Assembly (NCBI GenBank): GCA_903928445.1
Contig: CAIYRB010000060.1
Coordinates: 16,875 to 80,874, forward strand
Reading direction: 5' to 3'
Origin: an uncultured Pseudomonadota bacterium
Lineage (GTDB): Bacteria; Bdellovibrionota_B; Oligoflexia; Oligoflexales; CAIYRB01
DNA: 64,000 nucleotides
The notes beneath the pieces are model-generated. The model did no database searches. It was not told the DNA's origin and was given only the letters and a program-made list of their open reading frames with translations. Shown here in pieces: positions 43,740-64,000 of this stretch; position 1 is the first letter of the stretch, and each line of letters opens with the position of its first letter. Both the position numbers and the translations under genes were made by a program.

Positions 43740-43780
43740 ATCCTCTGCCGTTGCCAGCTTGCCACTAGTGCCGCGCCAGG

Positions 43781-44677: not shown

Positions 44678-44684
44678 AGCTCGC

Positions 44685-45587: not shown

Positions 45588-45827
45588 GCCATTGTGCTTT
45601 CTAAGGGTGCTTTCTCAGTGCGTTCTCAGGGCGTTACAAGGGCGGGTGGGGGTGTCCACGAGCAGCGCCGAAGGCCGCTGCTTTTAAGATGTGCCACCGG
45701 TCCATAATAGGCTAAAAGGGGGCGCCGCGCATGCCTGCCACGACCACCGACGAGCCTAGCGTTATTCGGCAAAAACGTCTACACCTGGCAACCCCAAGAC
45801 CGCCCCCTCACGGAGACCGCACCGCCG

Positions 45828-46982: not shown

Positions 46983-47149
46983 TATTCATGATCTAAACAA
47001 GGGTCTGGCGACCCTAGGCACGGGCCGCCGACAAAAGATTCGAATCGTCAAGCGGCTTCGAGTATATTCCGCCAGGGTTTTTTACCTAGTCTACCGGGTG
47101 TACCCAGCGCCTTGCGCCCAGGATACCGCAAACGATACGAGGAAAGTCG

Positions 47150-47815: not shown

Positions 47816-47954
47816 GAGGCGGCCAAGGCCTGACCCGGTACTGCACTTAGGCGGTATCTCGACGCTAACCCCGTTTTGCTGCCGTTTGCGCAAGCGGGGG
47901 CGCGGGGACCAGGTTTAAGGGCCGTGGCCTTTTGACCGATGCATAGCCTACGCT

Positions 47955-49661: not shown

Positions 49662-49666
49662 GGACC

Positions 49667-50917: not shown

Positions 50918-50920
50918 ATC

Positions 50921-51406
50921 ATGCCAACACCCCGCCCAACCTACCGCTCCTTAGCTTGGACTGCTCCAGCCCGCCGGCGCATGGCGGCGAGGATCCTAGC
51001 TGTCCTCCTTTTTGCTACCTTGGCGCACTGTGGTGGCCCCAGTGGCTCGGCCTATGACGATTCCCCACCGCCGCCTCCCGAAATCCCTAACACCAAAGCT
51101 TACCCGGCCCCGTCCAATCTCACCTGCAGCACTGGTTCTGCGCTCACATATACCTCATTTGGCAGCAGTTTCTTGCTGAAGTATTGCCGTTCTTGCCACA
51201 GCTCTAGCGTCGTCGGGGCCGACCGTCGCGGCGCCACAGTCGGCGCGAATTTCGATAGCGCCGTGGACGCTCAGGTCTGGCGAAGCACCATCCTTGGGCG
51301 CATCAGCGGTGGCAAAAAAATGCCACCTGCGGGCGATATCGATGCGCCGGATCTGAAAGCGGCCAAGGACTGGCTGGGCTGCGGCGCCCCAAGCGCGCCG
51401 GAGTGA
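50921..51406 (+). CDS. Small lipoprotein with a CxxCH motif (FLLKYCRSCHSS), putative c-type heme or metal-binding domain
   Basis: Lipobox LAHCGG, a Pro-rich linker and a single CxxCH preceded by an aromatic residue, as in PSCyt-type domains. Confidence 0.45.
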   Translation: MPTPRPTYRSLAWTAPARRRMAARILAVLLFATLAHCGGPSGSAYDDSPPPPPEIPNTKAYPAPSNLTCSTGSALTYTSFGSSFLLKYCRSCHSSSVVGADRRGATVGANFDSAVDAQVWRSTILGRISGGKKMPPAGDIDAPDLKAAKDWLGCGAPSAPE

Positions 51407-51466
51407 CCAAGTGGTGCCCGGGAATCCCGTATTGACTAACGCACTCGGCTGCGATTAGTAGGATCC

Positions 51467-52621
51467 ATGCAATTTGATGTATTCCATTCCCTAGGTCGAA
51501 TCGACGATGCCGCCGAGCCGCGCACCGATCGCCAGGTCTTTGCGCAATTTTTCGCCGAAGTGGCCGCCGCCGACCGTCTTGGCTACGGCACGATGTGGGT
51601 GGCGGAGTCGCACTTTTCCAGCGAAGTGCAAAAACACGGCGCTGCGCCGGTGATCCCCCATTACCGTGGCGAGGTTGGACTCAACTGCGACTCCCTGCAG
51701 CTCGGCCAGCTGATCCTCGAACGCACCAAGCGCCTGGGCTTTGGCACTGCCATCATGAATATCGTTGGCGGCAACGGCGGCCCCATCGCCGCTGCCGACC
51801 GGGTGCGCACTCTGGCGTGGTTAAACTCGCTGCGTGATGAACCACGCCGCCTCAGCATTGGTATCGCCTCCGGCCGCTTTCCCTATATCAATCGACCTTT
51901 CGGCATCGTGCCGCGCAGTCAAATCGAAGTCGACCGTTGGCCAGAAGCTCAGGCCTTGATCTTTATCGAAGCCTTGACCATCTTTTTACGCCTGCTGAGC
52001 GGCGACACCCTCGGCAGCCAAGACCTGGACCTACGCGACCTTCGCTACGCTGACGCGACGCCCTACACGCGCCGCTGGGAGTTTGAACGGCTTAAGTTGG
52101 TGCCAGAGATGAGCCCGGCTGAATGGACCCGCTGCCTGCGCATCGTCCTCGGTTCGGCAAGCCCACAGGCCCTTGCGACCGGCTTCAAATGGGCCGATGT
52201 GGATGTCTTCAACCTCTCTTTTACGCCACCCGCCGCCATCGAAAAGCTGCATGTAGACCTGGCCTCTCGCTGCACGGCGCCGCGCCTACCATGGCATCGC
52301 TCGCGTTTACCCCGCACCGTAATGGTCTTCATCGACCGCGACCCAGGCGTCGCCGAGGCGCGTGCCTCCGCCTGCTTTGACACCTATATCGAAGCGATGC
52401 GCGGTACTGCCCAAGTTCCAGACAAAGGGGTGTTGATGCAGCGAGCCTTGATCGGCACCGCCGCCGATATCCGCGCCCAGTTAGCACCGGGCGCACGTCA
52501 CGGCTTTCACCCGGACGACCGCTTGATGCTCTGGTTTGAATTCAATCAAACCAACGGCAGCCAGATCCTCGACCAAATGGAACGCTTTTCCGACCAGGTC
52601 CTACCCTACGTCACCGTTTGA
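51467..52621 (+). CDS. LLM-class (luciferase-like) flavin-dependent oxidoreductase
   Basis: N-terminal MQFDVFHS...LGYGTMWVAESHF TIM-barrel signature of the bacterial luciferase family. Confidence 0.7.
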   Translation: MQFDVFHSLGRIDDAAEPRTDRQVFAQFFAEVAAADRLGYGTMWVAESHFSSEVQKHGAAPVIPHYRGEVGLNCDSLQLGQLILERTKRLGFGTAIMNIVGGNGGPIAAADRVRTLAWLNSLRDEPRRLSIGIASGRFPYINRPFGIVPRSQIEVDRWPEAQALIFIEALTIFLRLLSGDTLGSQDLDLRDLRYADATPYTRRWEFERLKLVPEMSPAEWTRCLRIVLGSASPQALATGFKWADVDVFNLSFTPPAAIEKLHVDLASRCTAPRLPWHRSRLPRTVMVFIDRDPGVAEARASACFDTYIEAMRGTAQVPDKGVLMQRALIGTAADIRAQLAPGARHGFHPDDRLMLWFEFNQTNGSQILDQMERFSDQVLPYVTV

Positions 52622-52627
52622 GGCTTT

Positions 52628-53644
52628 ATGGCGTTACGCACCGATATTCCGACCCTCGTCGCCAACCTGAGCCCGCTGTTCGCTCTGGCCAGAAAAGGCA
52701 TCGCCGAAGTCGTCATCAGCGGTGTCAGCTACTACAAAGCCGAGGGCCAAAAACGTATCCTCGGCAGCGACCCCGCGGTCATGCTCATCGCTCGCTCACT
52801 GCTCAAACCATGGCAGTTTCTCGCCGCCGACGTCGCCGGTAGCGAGCCGTTTTGGGCGCTTGGGCTTGCTTCGCATTCCGGTCAGCCACACCACATGGAG
52901 CAGCTCCAACTGCTTGGCGCCGTAGCCGGTGCCGGCGAAAACGAGATCGTCTGCCCGCGCTGCTTTCCACTCGACGCCGGCATCAATTCCATGATGCGCA
53001 ATGCCAAAATGCAGCCGTCGCGCCTCCACCATCCGTGTTCCGGCAAGCACCTGACTGCCCTTGCCGCCTGCCGGCATTTTGGCTATCCGCTGGAACGCTA
53101 CTGGGAGACAGACCATCCCCTGCAAAAGCGCTTCGCCAACCTCATCGGCCAACTGGTCGGCGAGCGCCCGGTGTGGATGACCGATAGCTGCGGTCTGCCG
53201 ACGCTCGCCATCAGCGCCAAGGCCCATCTCAATCTTTGGGAGCGGCTGCTGCTAAGCGAAGACCCGCACTACCAACACCTAAAAAATCTGTGGCTACACA
53301 ACATCCGCTTAGTCGGAGGCTACGGCCGGCTCGAATCCGAACTGATGGAAGCCACAGGCGGCAAGGTGCTAGCTAAGGAGGGCGCCGACGGCCTGTTGGT
53401 TGTCGCCGCTTTTCCAACCGCCAGCGAAGCAGCCGCGGTGTGCTTAATAAAACTGGCCTCTGGCTACAGCGCCACCTACCTGGCCCTAGCCCTCTGGGGC
53501 GTCCTTAAGCGTACTCCTGAACTTGGCTCATCCATGCAGCTGGTCGCCGATTATCTCAGCTCACGCCTCGAGACCTGGGTACCCGGCGATCAAGAGCTGA
53601 TCTTACCGCCTTTTGCTCCGCCGTCTGCCGAGGTCGCGCAGTGA
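52628..53644 (+). CDS. Asparaginase-family protein (Asparaginase_II / PF06089-like)
   Basis: SHSGQPHH, CSGKH, DSCGLPT and KEGADG blocks resemble the L-asparaginase II (Rhizobium-type) family. Confidence 0.6.
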   Translation: MALRTDIPTLVANLSPLFALARKGIAEVVISGVSYYKAEGQKRILGSDPAVMLIARSLLKPWQFLAADVAGSEPFWALGLASHSGQPHHMEQLQLLGAVAGAGENEIVCPRCFPLDAGINSMMRNAKMQPSRLHHPCSGKHLTALAACRHFGYPLERYWETDHPLQKRFANLIGQLVGERPVWMTDSCGLPTLAISAKAHLNLWERLLLSEDPHYQHLKNLWLHNIRLVGGYGRLESELMEATGGKVLAKEGADGLLVVAAFPTASEAAAVCLIKLASGYSATYLALALWGVLKRTPELGSSMQLVADYLSSRLETWVPGDQELILPPFAPPSAEVAQ

Positions 53645-54609
53645 AGACCCATGATTTAACCGTCGACGCTGATCATAGCGGTAAACGCCTTGACGTTTTT
53701 CTCTCGGAGTCGGGACTGGACCTTTCCAAACGCAAGATTCGCCAGGTGATCGACGTCGGAGGCGTCTACGTCAATCGCAAGCGGGTGCGCGTCGCCTCGC
53801 GCCAGGTCACCAGGGGCGATAAGGTCCGTTTTGAATACAACGAAAACGCCCTGAGACAATTAAAAACGCAGCGTCCCGAGTTCAAGTCCGACGACCTGCT
53901 GTGGCGAGGCGAGCACGTCATCGCCGTCAATAAGCCACCAGGAATGGCCGCACAAGCGACCAAAGACCAATCGATCATGCACGTCGTGCCGTGCCTGGCG
54001 GCTCTGTTAAAAACACTAAAGACGCCGCACCAAAAACTAGTCCTAGTTCACCGCTTGGACAAAGAAACCTCCGGCGTCTTGTTGGTGGCCGAAGGCACTC
54101 CGCGCGCCACCTGGCTCACCGAGCAATTTAAACAGCGCTTAGTTGAAAAGACCTATCTCGCCCTATGCCACGGCATTCCTAAACAAATGGAATTTACAGA
54201 AAACGCCTACCTTTCCGAAATCGACAAGCGCACCGGAGACGTTCGTGCCGTCCGCGCCGGTGGACGCCAGGCGATGACCCGGTTCAAAGTCTTGGCCATG
54301 CATAAGGAGCTGGGCGTGTCCTTGATCGCCTGCTATCCGCACACCGGCCGTAGTCACCAAATTCGCGTCCACCTTCAGATCAACGATCTGCCGATCATCG
54401 GTGACAAGCGCTATAATACACCTGGAAGCAAGCCGCTACCTCCGGCCTTGGCCGAGCTGGGCGCGGTGCATCACTTCCTGCATGCGCGCGAACTCGCCTT
54501 TACGCCGGCGCCAGGGGCGGCGCGTCAGGTGGTAAAGGCGCCGCTGCCGCAGCGCTTTGGCGCTTTTATGGACGCCGTAGGCTTTCATGCGACGAGTGGC
54601 CAGGCCTAA
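53641..54609 (+). CDS. RluA-family 23S rRNA pseudouridine synthase (RluC/RluD-like) with an N-terminal S4 domain
   Basis: HRLDKETSGVLLVA catalytic Asp motif. GTG start overlaps the previous stop. Confidence 0.88.
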   Translation: MKTHDLTVDADHSGKRLDVFLSESGLDLSKRKIRQVIDVGGVYVNRKRVRVASRQVTRGDKVRFEYNENALRQLKTQRPEFKSDDLLWRGEHVIAVNKPPGMAAQATKDQSIMHVVPCLAALLKTLKTPHQKLVLVHRLDKETSGVLLVAEGTPRATWLTEQFKQRLVEKTYLALCHGIPKQMEFTENAYLSEIDKRTGDVRAVRAGGRQAMTRFKVLAMHKELGVSLIACYPHTGRSHQIRVHLQINDLPIIGDKRYNTPGSKPLPPALAELGAVHHFLHARELAFTPAPGAARQVVKAPLPQRFGAFMDAVGFHATSGQA

Positions 54610-54791
54610 CACCGCTCTGCTGAAGCTAGTTAAACGAGCGCCTTGCGACAAGTTTCCGGACTTGGCGGTCTGCTCGCAGTAAGCCCAAGACACAGAAAGC
54701 TTAGCGTTCCGGGCGCGGGATCTTTGATCAACGAGAAGATGGTTTTCGATCACGAGGCGACTGCGTTCGACATCTCCCCAGCTGGTTGGAT

Positions 54792-56150
54792 TTATCCAAT
54801 GGCTGAGTCTTCTTCGGGCAGCGGTGGAGCCCCTAGCGAGCGAAGGCGCTTGTCGATGAGCATTTTCAATTGGTCGACTTTGCCCTGGGGCACGACGGAC
54901 TGGCGCATGAGCGCAACGATGTCTGCGCCTCGCTTGGCTACCCGACCGAGTACCTCGTCGACGCGTTGCGCTTTCACTCCCGAGTCTTCGGCTTCCTGTT
55001 TCAAGTCTACCACCAGAATATTTCTCTTCTTATGGTTGATGAAGAGGGCGGAAGCGTTGGCGCTCGGTTTCCCAAGGAACTGATTTGGTAAGATATCGTA
55101 GGCCGGGGACAGCGTGTAGAAGGGAGTGCGGCCATCACCTGACGTGCCGATGATAGCGTGGTTCTTTAGGTGAGCGTCGCTGTTTCCAAAAACCAAGTTC
55201 AGGACTGTCAGTTCGATCAACCGTTCGAGGTCACGAGCTCGTGTTCTAGGAGAAGCATACGTCTTTATGGTTTTTGCTATGTCAGAAACTCGGCCCTCGA
55301 ACTTCTCGTTACCTAGACTGGATTTTTGGTGCAACTGGGCGAAGTCCTCGAAGTGGAGCTTCTCGCCGCCGCGTACGCGGTCGAAACGGCGGGTTAGGTA
55401 GGCCAGCTCGCCACTCTCAATCTCGACCAGTCCGGACGCGGCAGTCTGCACCCCCAGCAGGGTGAACAGCTTCATCCAGAGCTGCTCGATTTCCGGCACC
55501 GCCTGAACACCTTGTACTTGAGGCTTTAGGATGAAGTGAAAGTCGGCCTCTGGATAGTAGACTGGGAGCTTGGGTTGAACTCCGGGAATAGCGATGCCGC
55601 TGGAAATGGAGTCAATCGCCAGGCGCTCAAAGTCTTGCGGACCGAAGGGGAACAGCGGGGGCTCTTCAGTGCCAAAGAAGGACAGTGAACAGGCTTCATG
55701 ATAGCTTCGATTATGTCCCTTGCTTGGCAGCCGCTGCAGGCAAAGTAGGCAGCGGTCGCGCCGCCTAAGTCTCGCCGCGAAGCCGGTCCGGGTAACGGTT
55801 GTCGGTCGCATCTCGGCAGGACGGAGGGCGTCTTCGGCGGCTATTTCTACATCACCGATGGAGTGCGAGCATTTTTTGACGAGGTAGTCGATGACGCCGG
55901 CCGGAGCTTCCGTGTCGGTGCCAACGCCTTCGGCCAGGCGCCGTAGCCAGCCTTCGTACATCAGACCTTCGAAGAATGGATGGACCCTGCCTACGCTCTT
56001 ATAGTCCTTGGTGGTTGCTGGCATGAGCAAGCTCAGCGGAGGCGCCGCTGCAGGATAAGTTGGTTCGTATGCAAAGACGTAATCGGAGTCTCGCCTTTCC
56101 AGGACTCCGGCGTAAACTCCTGCCACGAAGATTTTTGCTCGCTCAGCCAC
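54792..56150 (-). CDS. hipA: HipA-family Ser/Thr kinase toxin (type II TA), full length with N-terminal HipA_N domain
   Basis: GVQPKL P-loop-like motif, GNSDAHLKNHAI catalytic motif and SPAYDILP. GTG start overlaps the upstream HTH gene by 8 nt. Contains a C-x2-C...H...C insertion (CLLCLQRLPSKGHNRSYHEAC). Confidence 0.88.
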   Translation of the reverse strand: MAERAKIFVAGVYAGVLERRDSDYVFAYEPTYPAAAPPLSLLMPATTKDYKSVGRVHPFFEGLMYEGWLRRLAEGVGTDTEAPAGVIDYLVKKCSHSIGDVEIAAEDALRPAEMRPTTVTRTGFAARLRRRDRCLLCLQRLPSKGHNRSYHEACSLSFFGTEEPPLFPFGPQDFERLAIDSISSGIAIPGVQPKLPVYYPEADFHFILKPQVQGVQAVPEIEQLWMKLFTLLGVQTAASGLVEIESGELAYLTRRFDRVRGGEKLHFEDFAQLHQKSSLGNEKFEGRVSDIAKTIKTYASPRTRARDLERLIELTVLNLVFGNSDAHLKNHAIIGTSGDGRTPFYTLSPAYDILPNQFLGKPSANASALFINHKKRNILVVDLKQEAEDSGVKAQRVDEVLGRVAKRGADIVALMRQSVVPQGKVDQLKMLIDKRLRSLGAPPLPEEDSAIG

Positions 56151-56469
56151 GGTTCGTCTCCTGGGACCCGCGGCGCCTAGGCACGATGGTCAGCTCACTA
56201 TCAAGATACGAGACGATTTTCATGACGGTCACAAGGTTTACGCGCATGTCGCCTTGCTCAATTTTCCTAAGGGAGTTGAGGCTGACCCCGGCATCGCGAG
56301 CCAGCTCTGCTTGCGTCATTCCGGCGGTAACCCGGGCCTCGGCCAAGGCACGGGCCACGGCTGACAGGCCTTCCTTTTTCCGATGCCGAGCCTTGATAGG
56401 AGGCAGGAGCGCGCTGACCGCCGCATCGAGGGGCGAGGAGCTTGCTTTGGGGGGCTTAGTCCTGGGCAT
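56143..56469 (-). CDS. hipB: XRE-family helix-turn-helix antitoxin (HipB-like)
   Basis: HTH TQAELARDAGVSLNSLRKIEQG. It lies immediately upstream of and overlapping hipA. Confidence 0.8.
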   Translation of the reverse strand: MPRTKPPKASSSPLDAAVSALLPPIKARHRKKEGLSAVARALAEARVTAGMTQAELARDAGVSLNSLRKIEQGDMRVNLVTVMKIVSYLDSELTIVPRRRGSQETNRG

Positions 56470-56559
56470 GGCGGCGGTTTTTCCAATTTTGCAATTTTTT
56501 AAGGCTATGATCTATCTTCGGATGTCATTACCTACTACTTGAATATATTATATCGAAAT

Positions 56560-56625
56560 AAATGCAATAGCGTGACCAAGTAACTTATTATATTTAAAAA
56601 TGGGCAATAGATCGTGACCAAGTGG
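56560..56625. promoter_or_regulatory. AT-rich promoter/operator region of hipBA with two direct repeats GCAATAG(AT)CGTGACCAAGT
   Basis: Repeats at 56564-56581 and 56605-56624. Local GC is ~35% against ~60% for the genome. Confidence 0.3.
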
Positions 56626-56816
56626 CTGCCCCCTAGTCCCACTCGTGAGGTGAGGTAGTCGTCTCGGTGGGTTAGCGGAAGTGACTGACCCGAATGGCGT
56701 CGATGCCTCGCTCGTTGTGGCGCCGGCCGCATCGTAGTCAAGAACAGATAAGGATTGTGCTAGGATCAATCATCAACAAACACGTTAAGACGATTTTGTA
56801 ACGGGATCAATCACCG

Positions 56817-58226
56817 ATGAATATTCGTTCCTTTTGCGACGATGTGTTGGCTGACCGAGACTGCGTGGCCTTAGCCGCTCTCATACGTAACGGCGAAATC
56901 AATTCGCACGAAGTCGTCGAAGCCGCGATCAAGCGGGCGCAGGCCGTCAACCCCATGCTCAATGCCATTAGCGTCGAGGATTTTGCGAATTCCCTCGCTA
57001 GCGCAGCAAAACACGAAGTCAAAAGCCACGCTTCCATCTTTTCTGGACTACCAACCTTTATCAAAGACAACGAACAGGTTCGAGGCTTGCCGACGCGGCT
57101 GGGGTCGCGCGCGACCTCCGACGCATTCGCCACGCAGTCGTCAAAATTCATCGAAGAATACCTGGCTCTGGGACTTATCAATCTGGGTAAGACCACCATG
57201 CCGGAGTTTGGCCTAACGGCCACCACCGAGTCGCTTCTCCACGGAGCCACGAGAAATCCGTGGAATAGCGACTATATTTGCGGTGGTTCATCTGGCGGTG
57301 CGGCGGCATTAGTGGCCGCTGGCGTCGTGCCGATAGCCCATGGCAATGATGGCGGCGGGTCGATCCGGATACCCGCTGCCTGCTGCGGACTGATTGGAAT
57401 GAAACCTACAAGGGGTCGATTAACCGCGTTACAGGGCACGGAAACCTTACCGATCAATTTGGTGCAACAAGGAGTTCTGACGCGCAGCGTCCGCGATACC
57501 GCCGCCTTTTTCGCGGCGGCGGAACGCGTTTACCGTAACCCTTCTTTGCCGGGCATTGGCGACGTCACGCGCCCAGGCAAAAGGCGCCTCCACATCGGCT
57601 TTTTTACCGAATATCCAAGCCGTCAATCGGTTCATCCCGAAAATAGAGACGTCACGGTAAAGGCCGCGCAACTTTGCGCCAGCATGGGACACAGGGTCGA
57701 AGAGGTCCCAACGCCTATTCCCGCGTCGCTGGAGGATGATTTTAAGTTCTACTGGGAGATGATCGCCTTTTCCATGCACCATTTTAGCAAGGCGACGCTT
57801 GGATATTCTTTGGATAAAGCACAACTTGAGCCCTTTACTCGCGGCCTCAGTCGACTCTTTTTTAAGAGATTTTATAAACTTCCCTACGCCATTCGGCGCC
57901 TCAAGGCTGCGGCTCGCGCCCTCACCGCCACATATGAGCGGTACGATGTTATAATCTCGCCAGTCCACGGTCACCCGACGCCAAAGATCGGTGAACTCAG
58001 TTCTTATATTGACGCCGAGTCGTCTCTGCGTAAGTTGTCTGATTTCGCACCGTTCACCCAGGAGCAAAATGTGACCGGCGCGCCGGCCATTTCGTTGCCG
58101 ATGGGTTCATGCAGCAATGGCCTGCCCTTGGGTGTCCAGTTTGCAACTGGGTTTGGTCAAGACCAAGGGCTCTTGGCGCTGGCCTTGGAAATCGAAGAAG
58201 CCGTCACCTGGTCGCGGATCGCTTGA
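56817..58226 (+). CDS. Amidase-signature family amidase
   Basis: GGSSGGAAALVAAG...GNDGGGSIRIPAACCG, giving the Ser-cisSer-Lys triad context. Confidence 0.88.
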   Translation: MNIRSFCDDVLADRDCVALAALIRNGEINSHEVVEAAIKRAQAVNPMLNAISVEDFANSLASAAKHEVKSHASIFSGLPTFIKDNEQVRGLPTRLGSRATSDAFATQSSKFIEEYLALGLINLGKTTMPEFGLTATTESLLHGATRNPWNSDYICGGSSGGAAALVAAGVVPIAHGNDGGGSIRIPAACCGLIGMKPTRGRLTALQGTETLPINLVQQGVLTRSVRDTAAFFAAAERVYRNPSLPGIGDVTRPGKRRLHIGFFTEYPSRQSVHPENRDVTVKAAQLCASMGHRVEEVPTPIPASLEDDFKFYWEMIAFSMHHFSKATLGYSLDKAQLEPFTRGLSRLFFKRFYKLPYAIRRLKAAARALTATYERYDVIISPVHGHPTPKIGELSSYIDAESSLRKLSDFAPFTQEQNVTGAPAISLPMGSCSNGLPLGVQFATGFGQDQGLLALALEIEEAVTWSRIA

Positions 58227-58494
58227 TCTTGCCTGTAGTGGCAACACACATTTCCCACTTATCCCCAGATTCCAAACACCTCTTAGGAGAGTACACTGTT
58301 CAGCCCGTTACTCACATATCCGGTGGATTTAATTCAACTCAACTCGAAATAGCCGCAGCTTAGCATCCAGGCCAATTATTTCCTTCCCACGCAAGCCGTC
58401 GAAAGTACTCATTTTTGCCGGGTTTCTAAAGAAATCTTCAACATCTGCCGATAAGGTGGTTACATGAAGAGACTACGCCTTAGAGGAGCGCATC

Positions 58495-59499
58495 ATGATC
58501 CTTAAAACCATCATCCGTGGTACCCAGATTGCACTTATAGGAATTGCGATCATCAGCTGCGGCAATCCAAACGCTAGCAATCCACTAGGCGATGTTGATC
58601 TTACTGGCGCTGCTGCAGACCTGAATAGCCTACTAGAGCAGACACAGAAATCACCTGCGTTCGTGAGCAACATTGCTAAAGCCGGCAGCTCCACAGTTGG
58701 AGGGTTCGCCTCTTCACTTACTACAGGTCTGTCAGATGACAGCTTCGCCTTCAATGGAAAAACTTTCGGTAAACTTAAAACCTCGCTGAATACGAACTCC
58801 AAAACGCTAGCTGCTTTTGAATCTATAGGTAAACCCTTCAAATCGATGAACGACCTGTTCGCCGCGCATGGTTTAAAAGGCGCAATCAAAGTTGATGAGA
58901 TCAAGGCTTATGTGAAGGTTGCAAGCGCAGCGCTCACCGCACTATCGCAACCAAAGGCTTCAGTGCCTCGCCTAGACACAGCAACAATGGTCCGCGCACT
59001 ACGCGTCTCGGTCGCGCTATCCATTGTCGCAGCGAAGAAAAGTAGCGCGGGCCTGAACCTAGACGATAAACCAACATGGGGATATGCGAGTGAGTGCAGC
59101 ACCTACAACCAGAGCGCTACTAACAACAAAAACTGGATGTGCTATCAAAAAGAAATTGGCGGATCGATTGGCTATATCAGCGCTGGCAACAAAAAGCAGT
59201 GGGAGGACGCTTTCGATCCGAGTAGACACTTTAAGATTTGCGATGCAGCGTCGGCACCCCAAGGCAGCGGTGCCTGGGGATGGATTGCCGACCCGAGCGC
59301 CCCGGGTGGCGGAGAATCTTGCCACGTAGATATACCCGTGACTGATTCAAGTCTTCAGAAAATTTGCGCTAAATATAAGGACATTGACTCGGGAGACTGC
59401 AAGCCTAGCACAGACCAAAAGACTGGTGATACTTCAGCCACCAAGCCTGGGAATTCAAAAAGTCCCGACAATTCGGCTGGCGCAGCTGACCAGCCGTAA
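58495..59499 (+). CDS. Hypothetical lipoprotein, low-GC gene (~48% GC)
   Basis: Lipobox IISC, AGAGGAG RBS, Cys-rich C-terminal half, no recognisable domain. Confidence 0.5.
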   Translation: MILKTIIRGTQIALIGIAIISCGNPNASNPLGDVDLTGAAADLNSLLEQTQKSPAFVSNIAKAGSSTVGGFASSLTTGLSDDSFAFNGKTFGKLKTSLNTNSKTLAAFESIGKPFKSMNDLFAAHGLKGAIKVDEIKAYVKVASAALTALSQPKASVPRLDTATMVRALRVSVALSIVAAKKSSAGLNLDDKPTWGYASECSTYNQSATNNKNWMCYQKEIGGSIGYISAGNKKQWEDAFDPSRHFKICDAASAPQGSGAWGWIADPSAPGGGESCHVDIPVTDSSLQKICAKYKDIDSGDCKPSTDQKTGDTSATKPGNSKSPDNSAGAADQP

Positions 59500-59672
59500 G
59501 AAATAATATTCCGAATGGTCAGATATGAAGGCGAACATCAGCCTAAGAATCAAGGTCCCTTGAGTATCTGATGAGTATAGGAGAAACAAGTTCGCCACGA
59601 GGCGTCTTTATTGTCGGGGTGTCTGATCCTTGCAGCTTTTGACAGCAAATAGCACCGTTCTGGAGGGATGCA

Positions 59673-60140
59673 ATGAGCGAGATGACAAAAATGGCGATCA
59701 GCTATGCCATATTAGTGGCCAGCACCGTTGCGTTGGTCGGTTGCGGTACCAGCAAGAAAAGCGAATCAGCGGCCGCGCCAGCCGTGGACCCGAAAGCAAG
59801 CCCAGCCAAAAGCAACAACGAAGGCGCCTGGGCGCCGCTCACAGCACAGGTGATCGACTACGATGGAAATTCGGACCTGTCCTGCACCCCTGGACGGTCA
59901 GTCTATCGTATTTTTCTCAAGACCGGTTTCGTAATCGACGAAAGGGTAGCGACCATCGATCATTCCTGTACCGAGACTGTGCAACACGTTGGCTTCGTCT
60001 GCACGCCGAGTGGGCCATACTACAAGCTTGAGGGCACAGCGGATGGGCAGCTCATGGGCGCTGGCAACCTCGGCGTCTATCAGAATCAGAAGGATTGCCA
60101 GGGCTACGCGAACGCGTTGAGGAATAAATCACCCCGCTAG
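59673..60140 (+). CDS. Hypothetical small lipoprotein
   Basis: Lipobox LVGC, GGAGGG RBS, six Cys in the mature part. Confidence 0.5.
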   Translation: MSEMTKMAISYAILVASTVALVGCGTSKKSESAAAPAVDPKASPAKSNNEGAWAPLTAQVIDYDGNSDLSCTPGRSVYRIFLKTGFVIDERVATIDHSCTETVQHVGFVCTPSGPYYKLEGTADGQLMGAGNLGVYQNQKDCQGYANALRNKSPR

Positions 60141-60297
60141 CCGTTCCGGCATAAAGATAGAAGGCTCTGGCCAGCCGCTTTTGCGCCGCCTGCTTGCTGA
60201 TCCCGTAGTGGGCGCCGATTTTGGCGAGACCCCAGTCGGGATGGGCGATTTGGAGTGCTGCAGTCTGGATTGCAGGATGAAGCCCTGGTACAGTCAT
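60052..60297 (-). pseudogene. Short ORF encoding an HTH remnant (GLAKIGAHYGISKQAAQKRLARA; sigma-70 region-4, transposase or excisionase-type), probably a gene fragment
   Basis: ATG at 60297. A convincing HTH occupies the first ~50 codons, but the remainder overlaps the convergent lipoprotein gene and looks non-coding. It may be a mobile-element relic or a very small DNA-binding protein. Confidence 0.3.
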
Positions 60298-60397
60298 GGG
60301 ACGGGGTGCTCATAATTTTTTGGTGTAGCAACCGGGATTGTTGTGGATAAGTTGGCTGGATCGTCAACCGGTTAGGCGCCTAGGTTTGACTCGCAGG

Positions 60398-60526
60398 GTG
60401 TATCAAGAAAACACTTATGCCGGCGAAGACCTCGAGACGGTAGCGAAGCTGATCGACAACCTTGACGTCGTGAAGTATGGCAAGAGCCGCGCCGATAAAC
60501 ATCCATTCTGGAGATCCTATGAATAA
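60398..60526 (+). CDS. Candidate small ORF (~42 aa from GTG; VYQENTYAGEDLETVAKLIDNLDVVKYGKSRADKHPFWRSYE) overlapping the SPFH start
   Basis: GC3-rich, protein-like composition. Its stop TAA overlaps the SPFH ATG by 8 nt. Start codon uncertain (GTG at 60398, TTG at 60386 or 60338). Confidence 0.25.
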   Translation: MYQENTYAGEDLETVAKLIDNLDVVKYGKSRADKHPFWRSYE

Positions 60527-61451
60527 CCAACAAACGCTCCATCTAAATCTCGTTCCTTTACAACGAAACCTCGGCCCAATCCTAAGTGCCGCTGCACTAA
60601 TAGCAGTCCTTATTGTCGGATCAAGCTCCTTCTCAGTGATTGAACCCGGCAATACCGGGGTCGTCTTCAATCTCTGGACTGGATCGCTAAGAACCGTGGG
60701 ACAAGGGATGATCTGGCGCATTCCTTTTATTACTCGGGTCCAGAGTTACCCTACGGCTCTTCGCACATATACGATGGTCGCCCGCGCTAACGAAGGCTCC
60801 GCGACGGGAGATGACAGTATCGATTTGCCGACCCAGGAAGGCCAACACATCCGCCAAGACATTTCCGTCACGTATAACACCTCCGAGGAGCGGGCGGCCG
60901 ATGTCTTCCGCGCCTTTCGCGGTGCCGATATGGCTGAGATCGAGGCGACCTTCATCCGCCGCACGGTGATCACCGTCGCACAAAATACCGCCGGCCAGGT
61001 GTCACTTGGCGAGCTGATCTCCTCTAAGCGTGGTCAGCTGCAAACATCAATTCAAAACAGTCTGACAACCGAACTTAGCAAAATGGGATTTTTGCTGGAT
61101 AAAGTGAATTTAGGTGCCAGCCACCTGCCGCAATCGATCGAAAAGCAAATGCAAGAAAAGATGGGCGCACAGCAACAGGCGCAGCAGGCGGAATACGAAC
61201 TACAAAAGCAGCAAACCTTAGCCAAAGCGACCGTGGCTAAGGCCGAGGGCGACGCCCAAGCCATTATGGTCCGCGCCAAAGGCGAGGCAGAGGCTAACCG
61301 ACTACTGCAATCGACACTAAATGAAAACATCATTCAGAATCGGGCCATTGAGAAATGGGACGGGGTTCTGCCGCAAGTCACCAGCGGGGCAACTCCATTC
61401 GTCAATTTGCGAGCGATGAAAGGGGACAGACACGGTGGTGCGCCGGAGTAA
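60519..61451 (+). CDS. SPFH/Band-7 (prohibitin/stomatin-like) membrane protein with a Gln-rich coiled-coil tail
   Basis: N-terminal TM, then VIEPGNTGVVFNLWTG SPFH core and a C-terminal QQQAQQAEYELQKQQ coiled coil. GGAGA RBS before the ATG at 60519. The alternative ATG at 60477 is possible. Confidence 0.85.
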   Translation: MNNQQTLHLNLVPLQRNLGPILSAAALIAVLIVGSSSFSVIEPGNTGVVFNLWTGSLRTVGQGMIWRIPFITRVQSYPTALRTYTMVARANEGSATGDDSIDLPTQEGQHIRQDISVTYNTSEERAADVFRAFRGADMAEIEATFIRRTVITVAQNTAGQVSLGELISSKRGQLQTSIQNSLTTELSKMGFLLDKVNLGASHLPQSIEKQMQEKMGAQQQAQQAEYELQKQQTLAKATVAKAEGDAQAIMVRAKGEAEANRLLQSTLNENIIQNRAIEKWDGVLPQVTSGATPFVNLRAMKGDRHGGAPE

Positions 61452-61923
61452 TTCGCAGGGCTACAGGCCGCATTAAGGGTATTCACCATGATGTTGCTAT
61501 TGTTTGCTCGGAAAAATCCACCGGGAAGGGCCGCCGCTATTTTGCATGCTCGAACACCAAGTTTCAGTCGGAGTCATCACAAGGGCCGAATGCCAGCCAC
61601 ACTGGGACTAGCGCCCCCATCAATATAGCCGATTGTCCAGCTGCGGCCGCCAGTGGTCTTAAGCCCCCTATTTTCGTTGGCGGCCTAGTATCCATGGACC
61701 GTTCACGTCAGCACAGTCGGCCACGCGTCGGGTCTGAGTGATTTACCTCGTGTGCCAACGCCTATGACCGCCCGAGCTAGATGCCGTCAATTAAGTGTGC
61801 CCGCCTGTGAAGGTTATCTATTAATAAACTAATCGGGCTAATTTAAATGTCGTGTTGATTTTATTGGACTATTTCGATAATATCGATCAGTAGCATTTCA
61901 CTTTTTGTGAGGAAAACAGAGCT

Positions 61924-63111
61924 GTGATCGAGCGATTTTTAAACCTCAGTCGCATCCTCGGCGACCAGAATTCCGCCCTACTTTTCGGGCCACGCGGCAC
62001 CGGCAAGACGCACCTCATCAAGCATTTTCTTGCCACGCGATCATCAGCTCTGACCATCGACCTCTTGGATCCTCGCGAGCACAACCGCTACCTCCTAAAT
62101 CCCGCACAACTCATTCGCGACGTCGAAGGCGCGATGGTCGAGCAACGCGACACGCCACTATTGGTGTGTATCGATGAAGTGCAGAAGATTCCTCCGCTTC
62201 TCGACGAGGTACACCTCCTGCTAGAACGGTTTCGCGGCCGCGTACGATTTCTCCTCACCGGCTCCAGCGCCCGTAAACTAAAGCGCGTCGGTGTCAATCT
62301 CCTCGCGGGACGTGCATGGACGTTAAAGCTCCACCCGTTCACGACTCTTGAAATGGAGATTGACCTCGACCGCGCTTTGCAATTCGGCACATTACCGATG
62401 GCAGCACTCGCCTCGCAGCGCCCCTTTCGTTACCTAGAAAGCTACTGCGCCACTTACCTACAGGAAGAAATACAGCAAGAGGCTTTGGTGCGAAACGTTC
62501 AAGCCTTCCACCGATTTCTCGAGGTTGCCGCGCAAATGAATGGCGCTCCCGTACAGTATGCAAAGGTCGCCCGTGATTGCCATGTCGCACCGAACACCGT
62601 GCGCGACTACTTCGATATTTTGGTCGATACCTACCTCGCTTTCCGCCTGGAACCATGGAGTTTTTCTGTGCGGACACAGCTCCGCACTAACCCCAAATAT
62701 TACTTGTTCGATACTGGCGTGCTTAATACTTTGCGCGGCGAACTCCGCGCTGACGTCAAGGTCTCGGGGTTTCGGACGGGGGCACTCTTTGAAAGCTTCA
62801 TGGTCACCGAGTTGATTCGCTTGAACGATTATCTCGAGACCGGGTTTAAGTTTTATCATTGGCGCACCGACCGCGGAAAAGAGGTGGATTGTGTCTTAAG
62901 CCGTGGCCCCAGCGACCAAGCGCGGGCCATTGAGCTGAAGAACGCCGAGACACCCAGCGAACTCGACCTTGCCGGCCTCATCAGCTTTGCTGACGAGCAT
63001 CCCACAGCGGCGCTCTATTGCCTTTGCCGCACCCCGAGGCCTTACAAGCTGGGCAAAATTGACGTCTTGCCGTGGAGGGAAGGGCTGCGCGCTGTTATCG
63101 AAAGAGCCTGA
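61924..63111 (+). CDS. AAA-family ATPase with C-terminal DUF4143 domain (COG1373-type)
   Basis: Walker A LLFGPRGTGKTH and Walker B LLVCIDEVQ, with a downstream DUF4143-like region. GTG start. AT-rich promoter containing a TCGATA-A-TATCGA palindrome. Confidence 0.8.
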   Translation: MIERFLNLSRILGDQNSALLFGPRGTGKTHLIKHFLATRSSALTIDLLDPREHNRYLLNPAQLIRDVEGAMVEQRDTPLLVCIDEVQKIPPLLDEVHLLLERFRGRVRFLLTGSSARKLKRVGVNLLAGRAWTLKLHPFTTLEMEIDLDRALQFGTLPMAALASQRPFRYLESYCATYLQEEIQQEALVRNVQAFHRFLEVAAQMNGAPVQYAKVARDCHVAPNTVRDYFDILVDTYLAFRLEPWSFSVRTQLRTNPKYYLFDTGVLNTLRGELRADVKVSGFRTGALFESFMVTELIRLNDYLETGFKFYHWRTDRGKEVDCVLSRGPSDQARAIELKNAETPSELDLAGLISFADEHPTAALYCLCRTPRPYKLGKIDVLPWREGLRAVIERA

Positions 63112-63200
63112 TAGAGTCCCCCCCACGACTATTAAGGGAAGTCAAGAAAAGGGTGTGGAGGCAAGTCAAGTGCTTTACCGATTGGTTTAAGCTAAAGGGC

Positions 63201-64000
63201 ATGGCTAGCTTCGGCTCATTCGAGCGCCGTCAGAGTGCGAGCCTAGGTCCGACCGTGCCCAAACAAGGTGACGCTGCAGGCTGGAACACTAGCTTTTTCC
63301 ACGGCCGCTTTAAAAAATACTCTGCCACGCTCGCCGACCAATCCTACATCTTCAAGGTCAAAGAGGAGATTGCGCCCGAGCTACCTGACGTCGAGTATCT
63401 CTGCAACCAAATCGCCAAAAGTTGCAGCTTACCGGTCCCGCCCTTCTACATGGTCAAGTTCGGAGGTGAGCGCGCGTTTGTCACCAAAAACTTCATCAGA
63501 AAGAATGCGGGCGCGGTCAACCTCGTGCATATTTACCATCACCTAGATCCAGACGGGCGCTATGACTGTGAAGCTCTGCTAAAATCAATCCTTCACGAAA
63601 CAAGGCGTCACGCCGATGCAGTCATTTTTATGTCCACCTGTCTTTTCGATTCCATCATCGGCAATCACGACCGCCATGGGCGAAACCTCGGCCTACTCGT
63701 TACGACCAAAGGCACCGTGCTCGCGCCGATCTACGACAATACATCCGCCCTGGGACTTGAGTACGGCGAGTTTCTTAGAGCCGACTGGAATCCCAAGGGC
63801 AAGATCGCCGCAAACATGACGTCGGAGCCGACGGCCAAGGATTACGTCATCGAGTTCCGGCGTTTGGGCTACGGGGCCGAAGTCACCAAGTTCGTTCAGC
63901 GCCTAAACGTCGACAAGATCACGGCGATCATCGGCGCTTCGTTCTGCTCTGATCTGATGAAGGATGCGATGAAGCGGCTTGTCATTAACCGAATCGACGA
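63201..64000 (+). CDS. HipA-like kinase (C-terminal kinase core only, HipT/YjjJ-like); partial, continues beyond window end
   Basis: Frame absent from the ORF track because no stop falls within the window. ATG at 63201 after AAAGGG. Motifs FDSIIGNHDRHGRNLGLLV and APIYDNTSALG match the HipA catalytic and activation-loop blocks. No HipA N-terminal domain. Confidence 0.7.
   Translation, partial: MASFGSFERRQSASLGPTVPKQGDAAGWNTSFFHGRFKKYSATLADQSYIFKVKEEIAPELPDVEYLCNQIAKSCSLPVPPFYMVKFGGERAFVTKNFIRKNAGAVNLVHIYHHLDPDGRYDCEALLKSILHETRRHADAVIFMSTCLFDSIIGNHDRHGRNLGLLVTTKGTVLAPIYDNTSALGLEYGEFLRADWNPKGKIAANMTSEPTAKDYVIEFRRLGYGAEVTKFVQRLNVDKITAIIGASFCSDLMKDAMKRLVINRID

What the first reader, a model, noticed from the sequence alone, without database searches (positions are those of the whole stretch)
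54610..64000. Compositionally patchy accessory block at the 3' end: hipBA, amidase, low-GC lipoproteins, HTH relic, SPFH, ATPase, second HipA-like
After rluA (ends 54609) the gene content changes from housekeeping to a toxin-antitoxin pair, orphan lipoproteins and ATPase/kinase genes. Intergenic regions at 56470-56816 and 61790-61920 are strongly AT-rich, and the lipoprotein genes at 58495-60140 are ~48-50% GC against ~60% genome-wide. A probable HTH gene remnant lies at 60052-60297. This looks like horizontally acquired material, though no integrase or tRNA boundary is visible within the window.
Basis: seen in the sequence. Interest (0 to 1): 0.6.

Follow-up and report, generated by a model that had tools for sequence, protein, structure and literature searches.

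The report
Mosaic toxin-antitoxin/defence flexible region after rluA
The last 9.4 kb of the window is a real but ordinary "flexible" stretch of chromosome in an uncultured freshwater bacterium related to Oligoflexia, where toxin-antitoxin and candidate anti-phage genes are gained, lost and truncated between conserved genes; it is not one imported island.

Summary
The gene list is confirmed. It holds hipBA, an amidase, two lipoproteins, a fragment of an HTH gene, an SPFH gene, an AAA_14/DUF4143 ATPase and a second Hip kinase on the + strand.

The composition signal is weak. The region is 54.0% GC against 57.6% for the rest of the window. Only lipoprotein 1 is atypical in GC and codon usage.

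The comparative evidence is strong. A sister species at about 92% nucleotide identity loses homology just before the rluA stop codon, at window 54604. Strains of the same species at about 99% identity differ by a hipA deletion, a 2.8 kb ECF-sigma cassette that is deleted in the window and leaves a 48-nt scar, an IS insertion, and a swap of the ATPase cassette for RES-Xre and VapBC cassettes.

The amidase and SPFH genes are vertically inherited backbone. Lipoprotein 1 is a lineage-specific gene that sits elsewhere in the sister species. The ATPase matches PADLOC candidate PDC-S01, is strain-specific and has no relative above 57% identity, so it is the best candidate for horizontal transfer. Its cassette cut off the promoter and first 26 codons of a hipJS-like kinase (PADLOC PDC-M03A).

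Verdict: a cassette-wise mosaic flexible region with no sign of an integrase-type island. Its parts are new members of known kinds. Interest is modest.

The parts
53641..54609 (+). RluA-family pseudouridine synthase with an S4 domain. It is the last gene of the conserved core and marks the left boundary of the flexible region.
   Evidence: Pfam match. Homology with sister-species contig L016 ends at 54604. The gene trio upstream is conserved in the Pseudobacteriovorax MAG L017.
54792..56150 (-). hipA toxin kinase of 452 aa. It consists of a Couple_hipA domain (residues 6-103), a CxxC...HxxC motif (134-157) and a HipA_C core (187-407). The gene appears intact.
   Evidence: Pfam match. The colinear alignment to the short kinase includes the CxxC motif. 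Positions 54671-56082 are deleted in strain contigs L004, L005 and L006, leaving a 45-aa stub.
56143..56469 (-). hipB antitoxin with an XRE-type HTH, 108 aa, overlapping hipA by 8 nt. It is kept in every strain variant seen.
   Evidence: HTH_3 at 8.6e-11. couple_hipB at 4.4e-13, below the curated cut-off. Present in the contigs.
56470..56816 (.). Intergenic stretch of 45% GC that is a deletion scar. Positions 56700-56747 are a 48-nt internal relic of an MBL-fold (Lactamase_B) gene. Other strains and the sister species carry a cassette of MBL, zf-HC2 anti-sigma, ECF sigma and small ORFs here.
   Evidence: The 48 nt are 100% identical to L004 7979-8026 and 96% identical to L020 5719-5766. The cassette genes are listed. 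Direct repeats lie upstream of hipB at 56546-56623.
56817..58226 (+). Amidase-signature amidase of 469 aa. It is a conserved backbone gene.
   Evidence: Pfam and NCBIfam matches. It is 92% nt and 96% aa identical in sister-species contigs L019 and L020. Crude dN/dS is 0.12.
58234..58275 (+). A 42-nt motif that occurs once in the window and twice in the variable segment of strain contig L008. There it lies 87 nt upstream of an ORF with a faint resemblance to an IS91-family (Y2_Tnp) transposase fragment.
   Evidence: The Y2_Tnp match has E=0.078, which is not significant.
58404..58420 (.). Empty site of an insertion sequence. In the GROS21 strains an element with imperfect terminal inverted repeats of about 29 bp (GCTMTGTCCGGAT...) is inserted here, and many metagenome contigs break at this point.
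58495..59499 (+). Lipoprotein 1, 334 aa, with lipobox IISC. It is a lineage-restricted orphan family, low in GC and fast evolving, and has been relocated relative to the sister species.
   Evidence: Only 3 clusters are found among 5.8 billion proteins. The ortholog in L031 (87.9% nt over window 58388-59425) lies between ABC-transporter and ADH genes and is 48.5% GC. Codon-usage z is 2.7.
59673..60140 (+). Lipoprotein 2, 155 aa, with lipobox LVGC. It has no family match and is 56.6% GC.
   Evidence: tblastn finds no copy in L031, the only sister-species locus searched for lipoprotein 2, and the gene gave no match in sister-species L020 in the window-protein tblastn.
60052..60297 (-). 5' fragment, about 50 codons, of an HTH and coiled-coil gene whose family is 126-148 aa long. 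The rest of the ORF is read-through antisense to lipoprotein 2.
   Evidence: P0261 is 60% identical over residues 1-50 and P0265 is 51% identical over 1-51. The HTH matches are below threshold.
60456..60498 (.). A 43-nt relic that matches the 3' end of a 141-aa gene. In the sister species that gene lies, together with a response-regulator/GGDEF gene, between VapBC and SPFH.
   Evidence: 95% identical to L020 10848-10891.
60519..61451 (+). SPFH/Band_7 protein of 310 aa. It is a conserved backbone gene. The start at 60519 is preferred over 60477.
   Evidence: Pfam match. Homology with L020 starts at 60498 and the L020 ORF starts MNNQQT. It is 96% aa identical with crude dN/dS 0.08.
61585..63160 (+). 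Strain-specific cassette made of an AT-rich leader (61790-61920 is 33.6% GC) and an AAA_14+DUF4143 ATPase gene (61924-63111), which is a PADLOC PDC-S01 candidate defence gene. There are no terminal repeats.
   Evidence: The left junction is 61584/61585 against L008, L009 and L010. The right junction is 63160/63161 against L030. PDC-S01 matches at 3e-62. The best relatives are at most 57% identical and come from other phyla. No terminal inverted or direct repeats are found.
63161..64000 (+). Short Hip kinase, hipJS-like and matching PDC-M03A, truncated at the 5' end. It has lost its promoter and codons 1-26, which include the CxxC motif. An in-frame ATG at 63201 could give a product of about 274 aa. 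The catalytic motifs IGNHDRHGRN and YDNTS are present. The last 8 codons and the downstream partner gene (HipS-like domain plus predicted HTH) lie beyond the window end.
   Evidence: PDC-M03A matches at 1.5e-20. The partner gene is seen in L008, L029, L035 and L036.

Best explanation
The window's 3' end is a chromosomal flexible region, a small islet rich in toxin-antitoxin and defence genes. It begins at the stop codon of rluA in an uncultured freshwater bacterium whose nearest named relative is the Oligoflexia genus Pseudobacteriovorax (phylum Bdellovibrionota).

The region is a mosaic of two kinds of sequence. The first is vertically inherited backbone: the amidase and SPFH genes. The second is a set of independently exchanged cassettes:
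- hipBA;
- an ECF-sigma / anti-sigma / MBL cassette, deleted in this strain;
- two lipoprotein genes plus an HTH gene fragment;
- a PDC-S01-type ATPase-nuclease gene;
- a hipJS-like kinase / HipS-HTH module.

The cassettes turn over by illegitimate recombination, deletion and IS activity, and there is no sign of an integrase. This is inferred from sharp junctions that lack repeats, from scars of 43-48 nt, and from IS elements seen in other strains.

In functional terms, hipBA appears to be an intact type II TA module. By analogy with E. coli HipBA, HipA would phosphorylate an aminoacyl-tRNA synthetase and HipB would neutralise HipA and repress the operon. This was not tested. The ATPase is a candidate single-gene anti-phage defence. 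The second kinase has been beheaded by the ATPase cassette and is probably decaying or silenced.
For: Left boundary. Sister-species contig L016 is 92.6% identical over 44187-54604 and shares nothing further. What follows rluA there is a small secreted protein and a DUF4423 gene split by an IS21 element.

Backbone. In sister-species contig L020 the amidase and SPFH genes are 92% identical at the nucleotide level, with different cassettes between and around them: VapBC, a GGDEF response regulator, BrnTA, HEPN/MNT, IS66 fragments and the ECF cassette. Crude dN/dS is 0.08-0.12, the same as for rluA.

Variants within the species at about 99% identity:
- a hipA deletion;
- a 2.8 kb ECF cassette, with a 48-nt relic left in the window;
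- an IS insertion with terminal inverted repeats;
- replacement of 61585-63655 by 5.4 kb carrying RES-Xre, PIN-MazE and thioredoxin-like genes.

Kinase truncation. The intact allele in L030 is 98.2% identical, and its homology with the window starts at 63161, which is codon 27.

Defence and TA character. PADLOC matches PDC-S01 at 3e-62, PDC-M03A at 1.5e-20 and PDC-M03B at 3.9e-11.

The ATPase has no relative above 57% identity among 5.8 billion proteins, and the named hits come from Elusimicrobia, Planctomycetes, Nitrospira and CPR bacteria.

No att-like repeats, tRNA genes or integrase are present. No phage or plasmid DNA matches the region.
Against: The right-hand boundary was not seen, because the window ends inside the kinase gene. 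An integrase or att site further on cannot be excluded.

All the comparison sequences are metagenome contigs or MAGs. It is therefore unproven which variants sit together in one strain, and whether rluA and the amidase are linked in the sister species.

The direction of several events (gain, loss or relocation) is inferred only from relics and from one outgroup.

Codon usage of hipA, the ATPase and the kinase is typical of the host. Composition therefore gives no independent support for foreign origin.

No function was tested.
Confidence: 0.75

Rival explanations
1. The block is a single integrative genomic island (or ICE, or prophage) inserted next to rluA, with its integrase and second att site lying beyond the window end.
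For: Synteny breaks sharply at the rluA stop codon. The block is accessory-type gene content with slightly lower GC. The right end was not observed.
Against: The amidase and SPFH genes inside the block show the same 92% identity and low dN/dS with the sister species as the flanking core genes do. The variants have at least five independent internal junctions rather than all-or-none presence. There is no tRNA, integrase, att-like repeat, or phage or plasmid similarity.
Confidence: 0.07
2. The block is ordinary core chromosome. The composition dips are normal variance and the gene content is just a run of unrelated housekeeping and stress genes.
For: GC3 and codon usage lie within the window's range for 7 of the 9 genes. 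The stretch at 2.5-12 kb, which holds AcrB and amylase genes, is nearly as low in GC. The amidase and SPFH genes are conserved.
Against: Sister-species homology stops at rluA. Strain-level presence/absence affects hipA, the ECF cassette, the ATPase and the kinase. Lipoprotein 1 sits in another locus in the sister species.
Confidence: 0.1
3. The arrangement in the window is an assembly or binning chimera of co-occurring strains and does not exist in any real chromosome.
For: Many contigs break at 58411-58463, at 61584 and at 61897, which shows that several strains share the assembly graph at these points.
Against: Independent assemblies reproduce the window's joins. L001 covers 43659-61897 at 99.87%, L002 covers 43650-58463 and L012 covers 58497-61897 at 100%. 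A contig from sample ERZ1426548 carries SPFH, a 395-aa ATPase and the kinase at exactly the window's spacing.
Confidence: 0.05

Closest known systems
Flexible genomic islands and defence/TA islands of bacterial chromosomes (cassette-wise variable hot spots between conserved genes)
   Same: The region varies between strains and carries a high density of TA modules: hipBA and a hipJS-like module here, and RES-Xre, VapBC, BrnTA and HEPN/MNT in related contigs. It also carries candidate defence genes and has IS elements nearby.
   Different: No integrase, tRNA or flanking repeats were seen. Conserved backbone genes are interleaved with the cassettes. Much of the window's present state reflects deletions. 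Composition is barely atypical.
E. coli K-12 hipBA type II toxin-antitoxin module
   Same: The gene order is hipB then hipA, with overlapping genes. The antitoxin carries an XRE-type HTH. The kinase has Couple_hipA and HipA_C domains.
   Different: The match to the Pfam HipA_C domain is clear (1.1e-39), but direct identity to E. coli HipA was not measured. There is no Pfam HipA_N match. A CxxC...HxxC motif lies between the N-terminal subdomain and the kinase core. The target and the toxicity are untested.
hipJS / hipIN modules of Hip-tree clade XI (Gerdes et al. 2021, PMC8262856), which correspond to PADLOC candidate PDC-M03
   Same: The kinase is a short core kinase of about 300-313 aa that lacks N-subdomain 1. 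It is followed by an overlapping gene for a protein with a HipS-like (Couple_hipA) domain.
   Different: The partner protein is 208-215 aa and has a C-terminal domain that is probably an XRE-like HTH, not HIRAN and not HipS alone. The kinase family has an N-terminal CxxC...HxxC motif that the paper does not mention. The window copy has lost its first 26 codons and its promoter. Placement within the HipJ or HipI clade was not tested.
PADLOC PDC-S01 (AAA_14 ATPase fused to a DUF4143 PD-(D/E)xK-like domain)
   Same: The profile matches strongly (3e-62) and the two-domain architecture is the same. PMC12988326 describes it as the fourth most common candidate defence, with many transfers between domains of life.
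   Different: The defence function of PDC-S01 has not been validated. This copy has no relative above 57% identity, and its cassette replaced the 5' end of a toxin gene.
Legionella pneumophila HipBST (HipT, Lpg2370)
   Same: It is the closest solved structure to the short kinase (E=1.1e-8 over residues 84-303). The HipA architecture is likewise split into a kinase and a HipS-like protein.
   Different: The gene order is reversed, with the kinase first. The HipB-like HTH appears to be fused to HipS rather than encoded by a separate gene.

Membership tests
Classical integrase-mediated genomic island | An integrase or recombinase gene at one end | tested here: not met
   No match among the ORFs of 54610-64000. 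The right end lies outside the window, so this is only a partial test.
Classical integrase-mediated genomic island | Insertion at a tRNA or tmRNA gene, or flanking direct repeats (att sites) | tested here: not met
   The only tRNAs are at 26.8 and 34.4 kb. No repeats flank the block or its cassettes.
Classical integrase-mediated genomic island | Composition clearly different from the host genome | tested here: inconclusive
   54.0% against 57.6% GC. Gene GC differs at p=0.019 and GC3 at p=0.13. Only lipoprotein 1 is out of range.
Classical integrase-mediated genomic island | Present or absent as one unit in related genomes | tested here: not met
   The amidase and SPFH genes are conserved in the sister species while the cassettes vary independently.
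Flexible / variable chromosomal region | Synteny break against close relatives at a defined boundary | tested here: met
   L016 homology ends at 54604. The order in L017 diverges after rluA.
Flexible / variable chromosomal region | Presence/absence polymorphism within the species | tested here: met
   Contigs about 99% identical differ by the hipA deletion, the ECF cassette, the IS insertion and the ATPase/TA cassette swap.
hipBA type II TA | An HTH antitoxin gene directly upstream of, and overlapping, a HipA kinase gene | tested here: met
   hipB at 56143-56469 overlaps hipA at 54792-56150 by 8 nt.
hipBA type II TA | A kinase with an N-terminal Couple_hipA subdomain and a HipA_C core with catalytic motifs | tested here: met
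   Couple_hipA at 7e-13 and HipA_C at 1e-39. The GNSDAHLKN motif and the YD of the Mg-binding motif are visible in the translation and in the alignment.
hipBA type II TA | Toxicity of HipA and its neutralisation by HipB | not testable with these tools
   This needs expression experiments.
hipJS-like module / PADLOC PDC-M03 | A short core kinase lacking N-subdomain 1, with the conserved kinase motifs | tested here: met
   HipA_C at 9e-22 and PDC-M03A at 1.5e-20. The motifs IGNHDRHGRN and YDNTS are present.
hipJS-like module / PADLOC PDC-M03 | A downstream, overlapping gene for a protein with a HipS-like domain | tested here: inconclusive
   It lies beyond the window end. It is present in the near-identical contigs L008 and L030 and in L029, L035 and L036. 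PDC-M03B matches at 3.9e-11.
hipJS-like module / PADLOC PDC-M03 | A complete kinase gene with its own start codon and promoter | tested here: not met
   Homology of the window to the intact allele L030 begins at codon 27. The upstream sequence is the ATPase cassette.
hipJS-like module / PADLOC PDC-M03 | Phylogenetic placement within the HipJ or HipI clade of Gerdes et al. | not tested
Only the gene organisation was compared.
PADLOC PDC-S01 | A single gene encoding an AAA_14 ATPase with a DUF4143 domain that matches the PDC-S01 profiles | tested here: met
   AAA_14 at 1.3e-19 and DUF4143 at 1.1e-34. PDC-S01 at 3e-62.
PADLOC PDC-S01 | Anti-phage activity | not testable with these tools
   PMC12988326 states that validation is pending for most PDC candidates.

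The most novel reading that the evidence does not exclude
Two unrelated DUF4143 ATPase (PDC-S01-type) gene cassettes landed on opposite flanks of the same hipJS-like module in different strains. One removed the toxin's promoter and first 26 codons (the window). The other removed the 3' third of the HipS-HTH gene (L008). This could mean that PDC-S01 genes are themselves mobile cassettes that preferentially capture or disarm TA loci. Alternatively, the window's ATPase followed by the beheaded kinase (with HipS-HTH expected downstream, as in L008 and L030, though the window strain's downstream sequence was not seen) could work as a new chimeric operon in which the ATPase promoter now drives a kinase that lacks its Zn-ribbon.
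Probability: 0.1. Interest if true: 0.55.

Novelty: new member of a known kind. Interest (0 to 1): 0.3.

Why it matters
The main value is as a worked example. It shows that synteny and strain-level comparison identify a flexible region where composition alone cannot.

It also documents a natural series of toxin-gene decay with the antitoxin retained. hipA is deleted while hipB is kept. The short Hip kinase is truncated at codon 27 in one strain and at about codon 190 in another, while its partner gene persists. This fits models in which chromosomal TA modules erode from the toxin side.

It adds one uncharacterised variant of the split Hip systems: a kinase with an N-terminal CxxC...HxxC motif and a downstream HipS-HTH fusion, which is shared with Legionella and Bdellovibrionota. 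No member of Hip clade XI had been tested experimentally as of Gerdes et al. 2021.

Nothing here overturns current understanding.

Tried and rejected
- Exact-sequence look-ups of the ATPase and of lipoprotein 1 found nothing on record. The sequence beyond the window end in the same strain could therefore not be obtained.
- Rfam found only the two tRNA-Val genes.
- The repeat search over 54-64 kb gave only short, chance-level pairs. There are no att-like repeats and no terminal inverted or direct repeats at the ends of the ATPase cassette.
- The promoter and terminator scan gave no more hits than shuffled sequence.
- DNA searches against phages and plasmids matched only the conserved amidase-signature segment. 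PHROGs gave nothing for the lipoproteins or the HTH fragment, though it matched the SPFH protein strongly (see Noticed in passing). A prophage or plasmid origin was therefore rejected.
- The idea that the last ORF is a circularly permuted kinase fused to HipS was rejected. The frames differ, the kinase stops 8 codons past the window end, and the HipS-like protein is a separate overlapping gene.
- The idea that the ATPase downstream of hipS in L008 is the same gene as the window's, inverted, was rejected. tblastn finds no similarity.
- The idea that the low GC of lipoprotein 1 shows foreign origin was rejected. The sister-species ortholog, in a housekeeping locus, is equally low in GC.
- An IS91-family origin for the 42-nt motif remains only a lead. 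The Y2_Tnp match has E=0.078.

Full report
OBSERVATION

- An S4 plus PseudoU_synth_2 pseudouridine synthase ends at 54609.
- hipA (54792-56150) and hipB (56143-56469) lie on the minus strand in classical hipB-then-hipA order, overlapping by 8 nt.
- An amidase-signature amidase lies at 56817-58226.
- Two lipoprotein genes lie at 58495-59499 and 59673-60140, with lipoboxes IISC and LVGC.
- A small minus-strand ORF lies at 60052-60297.
- An SPFH/Band_7 gene follows.
- An AAA_14+DUF4143 ATPase lies at 61924-63111.
- A HipA_C kinase ORF runs off the window end on the plus strand.

There is no tRNA, integrase or Rfam element in the block.

The small ORF really is a gene fragment. A full HMMER scan of 1.84 billion representatives finds proteins of 126-148 aa that match only its first 50 residues. 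These carry sub-threshold HTH signals. The remaining 30 codons run antisense into lipoprotein 2.

COMPOSITION

- The window averages 57.1% GC. The block is 54.0% and the rest is 57.6%.
- The block is the lowest 9.4 kb window, but 2.5-12 kb is 55.1% and encodes an amylase and an AcrB-type pump.
- Among genes, only lipoprotein 1 (50.6% GC, GC3 50.3%) falls outside the range of the 44 other genes. Lipoprotein 2 is 56.6%.
- Gene GC differs weakly between the block and the rest (Mann-Whitney p=0.019). GC3 does not (p=0.13).
- Codon-usage distance is unremarkable for hipA, the amidase, SPFH, the ATPase and the kinase (z from -0.65 to 0.33). It is high only for lipoprotein 1 (z=2.7) and the short hipB.
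- The tetranucleotide correlation dips to 0.83-0.85 in the block, but 5-10 kb reaches 0.856.
- The intergenic stretch 56470-56816 is 45% GC, at the low edge of normal for intergenic DNA. The stretch 61790-61920 is 33.6% GC and is truly AT-rich.

Composition alone would not justify calling this an island.

COMPARISON WITH RELATIVES

The nearest genome in the GTDB species set is a Lac Pavin sediment MAG (L016). The next is a Pseudobacteriovorax MAG (L017, 57% RluA identity), which places the organism near the Oligoflexia in phylum Bdellovibrionota.

L016 is 92.6% identical to the window over 44187-54604 and then shares nothing with it. What follows rluA there is a small secreted protein and a DUF4423 gene interrupted by an IS21 element. 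L017 keeps the trio of luciferase-like gene, asparaginase II and rluA, and then diverges.

A JGI contig of the sister species (L020) shows that the amidase and SPFH genes are 92% identical at the nucleotide level and 96% at the protein level. That matches the core flank. Crude dN/dS is 0.08-0.12, as for rluA.

Around and between these two genes the sister species carries different cassettes:
- upstream: VapBC, HEPN/MNT, IS66 fragments, BrnTA, an MBL / anti-sigma / ECF-sigma cassette and a fatty-acid hydroxylase;
- between the amidase and SPFH: VapBC, a 141-aa gene and a response-regulator/GGDEF gene;
- downstream: HupE, an MFS transporter and a DUF4143 paralog.

The amidase and SPFH genes are thus vertically inherited backbone, not imports.

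STRAIN VARIANTS WITHIN THE SPECIES

Metagenome contigs 99% or more identical to the window reveal at least five independent junctions.

1. In L004, L005 and L006, positions 54671-56082 are missing. This is nearly all of hipA. A 45-aa stub and an intact hipB remain.

2. The same contigs carry 2.8 kb between hipB and the amidase, encoding an MBL-fold protein, a zf-HC2 anti-sigma factor, an ECF sigma factor and small ORFs. The window retains a 48-nt internal piece of the MBL gene at 56700-56747. This piece is 100% identical to L004 7979-8026. The window strain therefore lost the cassette through two deletions of 890 and 1905 bp. The "AT-rich intergenic region" is a deletion scar.

3. At about 58411, the GROS21 strains carry an element with imperfect terminal inverted repeats of about 29 bp. 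The window has the empty site. This explains why many contigs break there.

4. A 43-nt relic at 60456-60498 matches the 3' end of the sister species' 141-aa gene. This is a second scar.

5. In L008, L009 and L010, window 61585-63655 is replaced by 5.4 kb carrying RES-Xre, PIN-MazE, a thioredoxin-like gene and unknown ORFs. Homology resumes at the kinase catalytic motif.

LIPOPROTEIN 1

Only three clusters exist among 5.8 billion proteins, at 100%, 85% and 83% identity. The sister-species ortholog is 87.9% identical at the nucleotide level over window 58388-59425. It lies in a different locus with a housekeeping look, among ABC-transporter, ADH, patatin and OPT genes. It is itself 48.5% GC.

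The low GC is therefore intrinsic to this fast-evolving, lineage-specific gene. The gene has been relocated, not imported from far away.

ATPASE CASSETTE AND THE SECOND KINASE

The ATPase matches PADLOC candidate PDC-S01 at 3e-62. PMC12988326 describes PDC-S01 as an ATPase fused to a PD-(D/E)xK domain, very common, often transferred between domains of life, and not experimentally validated. The best relatives of the window's copy are at most 57% identical, and the named ones come from other phyla. The copy is absent from L008-type and L030-type strains. This makes it the best candidate for recent transfer in the block, although its composition is typical of the host.

The cassette (61585-63160) has no terminal repeats.

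Its right junction falls inside the kinase gene. Full-length relatives are 300-313 aa and begin with a CxxC...HxxC motif. The intact allele in L030 is 98.2% identical, but only from window 63161, which is codon 27.

The window copy has therefore lost its promoter and its first 26 codons. An in-frame ATG at 63201 is a substitution relative to the relatives, which have I or R at that position. It could give a product of about 274 aa that keeps all the core motifs.

The differences from L030 are 12 in codons that change the amino acid and 3 in synonymous codons. This suggests relaxed constraint, but it rests on only 15 changes.

The kinase stops 8 codons past the window end, and an overlapping gene follows. 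In L029, L035 and L036 that partner is 208-215 aa. [quoted passage not shown] The support for the HTH is weak: a weak HTH_3 hit in the Legionella-type partner and E=0.45 against CylR2.

PADLOC calls the pair PDC-M03A/B. The gene organisation corresponds to the kinase-first hipJS and hipIN modules of Hip-tree clade XI (Gerdes et al. 2021). The closest solved structure is Legionella HipT.

In L008 the partner gene is itself cut at about codon 150 by a segment carrying a different, convergent DUF4143 ATPase.

HipA (452 aa) aligns colinearly with the short kinase from the shared CxxC motif onward (22% identity, E=8e-8). The two modules are thus fused and split versions of one architecture.

INTERPRETATION

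The block is a flexible chromosomal region in which TA and candidate defence cassettes are exchanged, relocated, deleted and truncated between conserved backbone genes. There is no sign of site-specific integration. The junctions are sharp and lack repeats, relics of 43-48 nt remain, and IS elements (IS21, IS66 fragments and an unclassified element with terminal inverted repeats) occur in related contigs.

Both Hip toxins are lost or truncated in some strains while their antitoxin genes persist.

A single integrase-borne island, an ordinary core region and an assembly chimera are each much less likely. Independent assemblies reproduce every join in the window.

LIMITS

- The right boundary is outside the window.
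- All the comparison sequences are metagenomic.
- The direction of some events is inferred.
- No function was tested.

NOVELTY AND INTEREST

The parts are new members of known kinds: hipBA, PDC-S01, a hipJS-like/PDC-M03 module, and a flexible TA/defence islet. Interest is modest at 0.3.

The most novel reading still open is that PDC-S01 cassettes target or rewire this TA module. It has a probability of about 0.1.

Noticed in passing
window 56546-56623: Two direct repeat units of about 36-38 nt, spaced 40-42 nt apart (TATTATAT..AAATG.GCAATAG..CGTGACCAAGT), lie upstream of hipB. They may be HipB operators or a duplicated promoter.
   Followed up: partly
window 56763-56772 and 56804-56813: An exact 10-nt direct repeat, GGATCAATCA, occurs twice 41 nt apart, just upstream of the amidase start codon.
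   Followed up: no
window 58234-58275; L008 4724-4765 and 8233-8274: A 42-nt motif with a sharp left edge lies immediately downstream of the amidase gene. In strain contig L008 it recurs twice as the start of a longer repeat. At the first copy it is followed by a 148-aa ORF with a faint match to an IS91-family (Y2_Tnp) transposase C-terminus (E=0.078, not significant); the region after the second copy is full of stop codons.
   Followed up: partly
window 54792-56150 (HipA residues 134-157); P0001 residues 8-30: Both Hip kinases carry a CxxC...HxxC motif directly before the kinase core, which may be a Zn-ribbon. The motif is not mentioned in Gerdes et al. 2021. Its CxxC half is the part deleted from the window's short kinase.
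   Followed up: partly
L029 1162-1809; L035 3609-4244; L036 5902-6528: The partner of the short kinase is a protein of 208-215 aa with a HipS-like domain and what is probably an XRE-type HTH. This would be a HipS-HipB fusion encoded downstream of the kinase. The pair is conserved in Legionella-type and Bdellovibrionota-type contigs.
   Followed up: partly
L004 7099-9766 against L020 4839-7506: The ECF-sigma / anti-sigma / MBL cassette is 95.4% identical between a strain of this species and the sister species. The neighbouring amidase is about 92% identical. This hints at recombination between the species or at stronger constraint on the cassette.
   Followed up: no
L016 11020-14642: In the sister-species MAG, an IS21 element (istA of 513 aa and istB of 270 aa) splits a DUF4423 gene a short distance downstream of rluA.
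   Followed up: partly
L008 about 8990-9000, against window about 63955: A 5-nt duplication (CTGAT) in L008 frameshifts the remaining 3' part of the already truncated kinase gene.
   Followed up: yes
window 61897: Two independent assemblies (L001 and L012) both end exactly at 61897, which is 27 nt before the ATPase start codon. This suggests a further strain branch point or a repeat that was not resolved here.
   Followed up: no
window 60519-61451: The conserved SPFH protein matches PHROG 200 strongly (6e-59; annotated there as a lipoprotein). No NfeD partner gene is adjacent.
   Followed up: no
window 58495-59499: Lipoprotein 1 is only about 85% identical at the protein level to its sister-species ortholog, against 96% for the neighbouring backbone genes. 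It is a rapidly evolving surface-protein candidate.
   Followed up: partly
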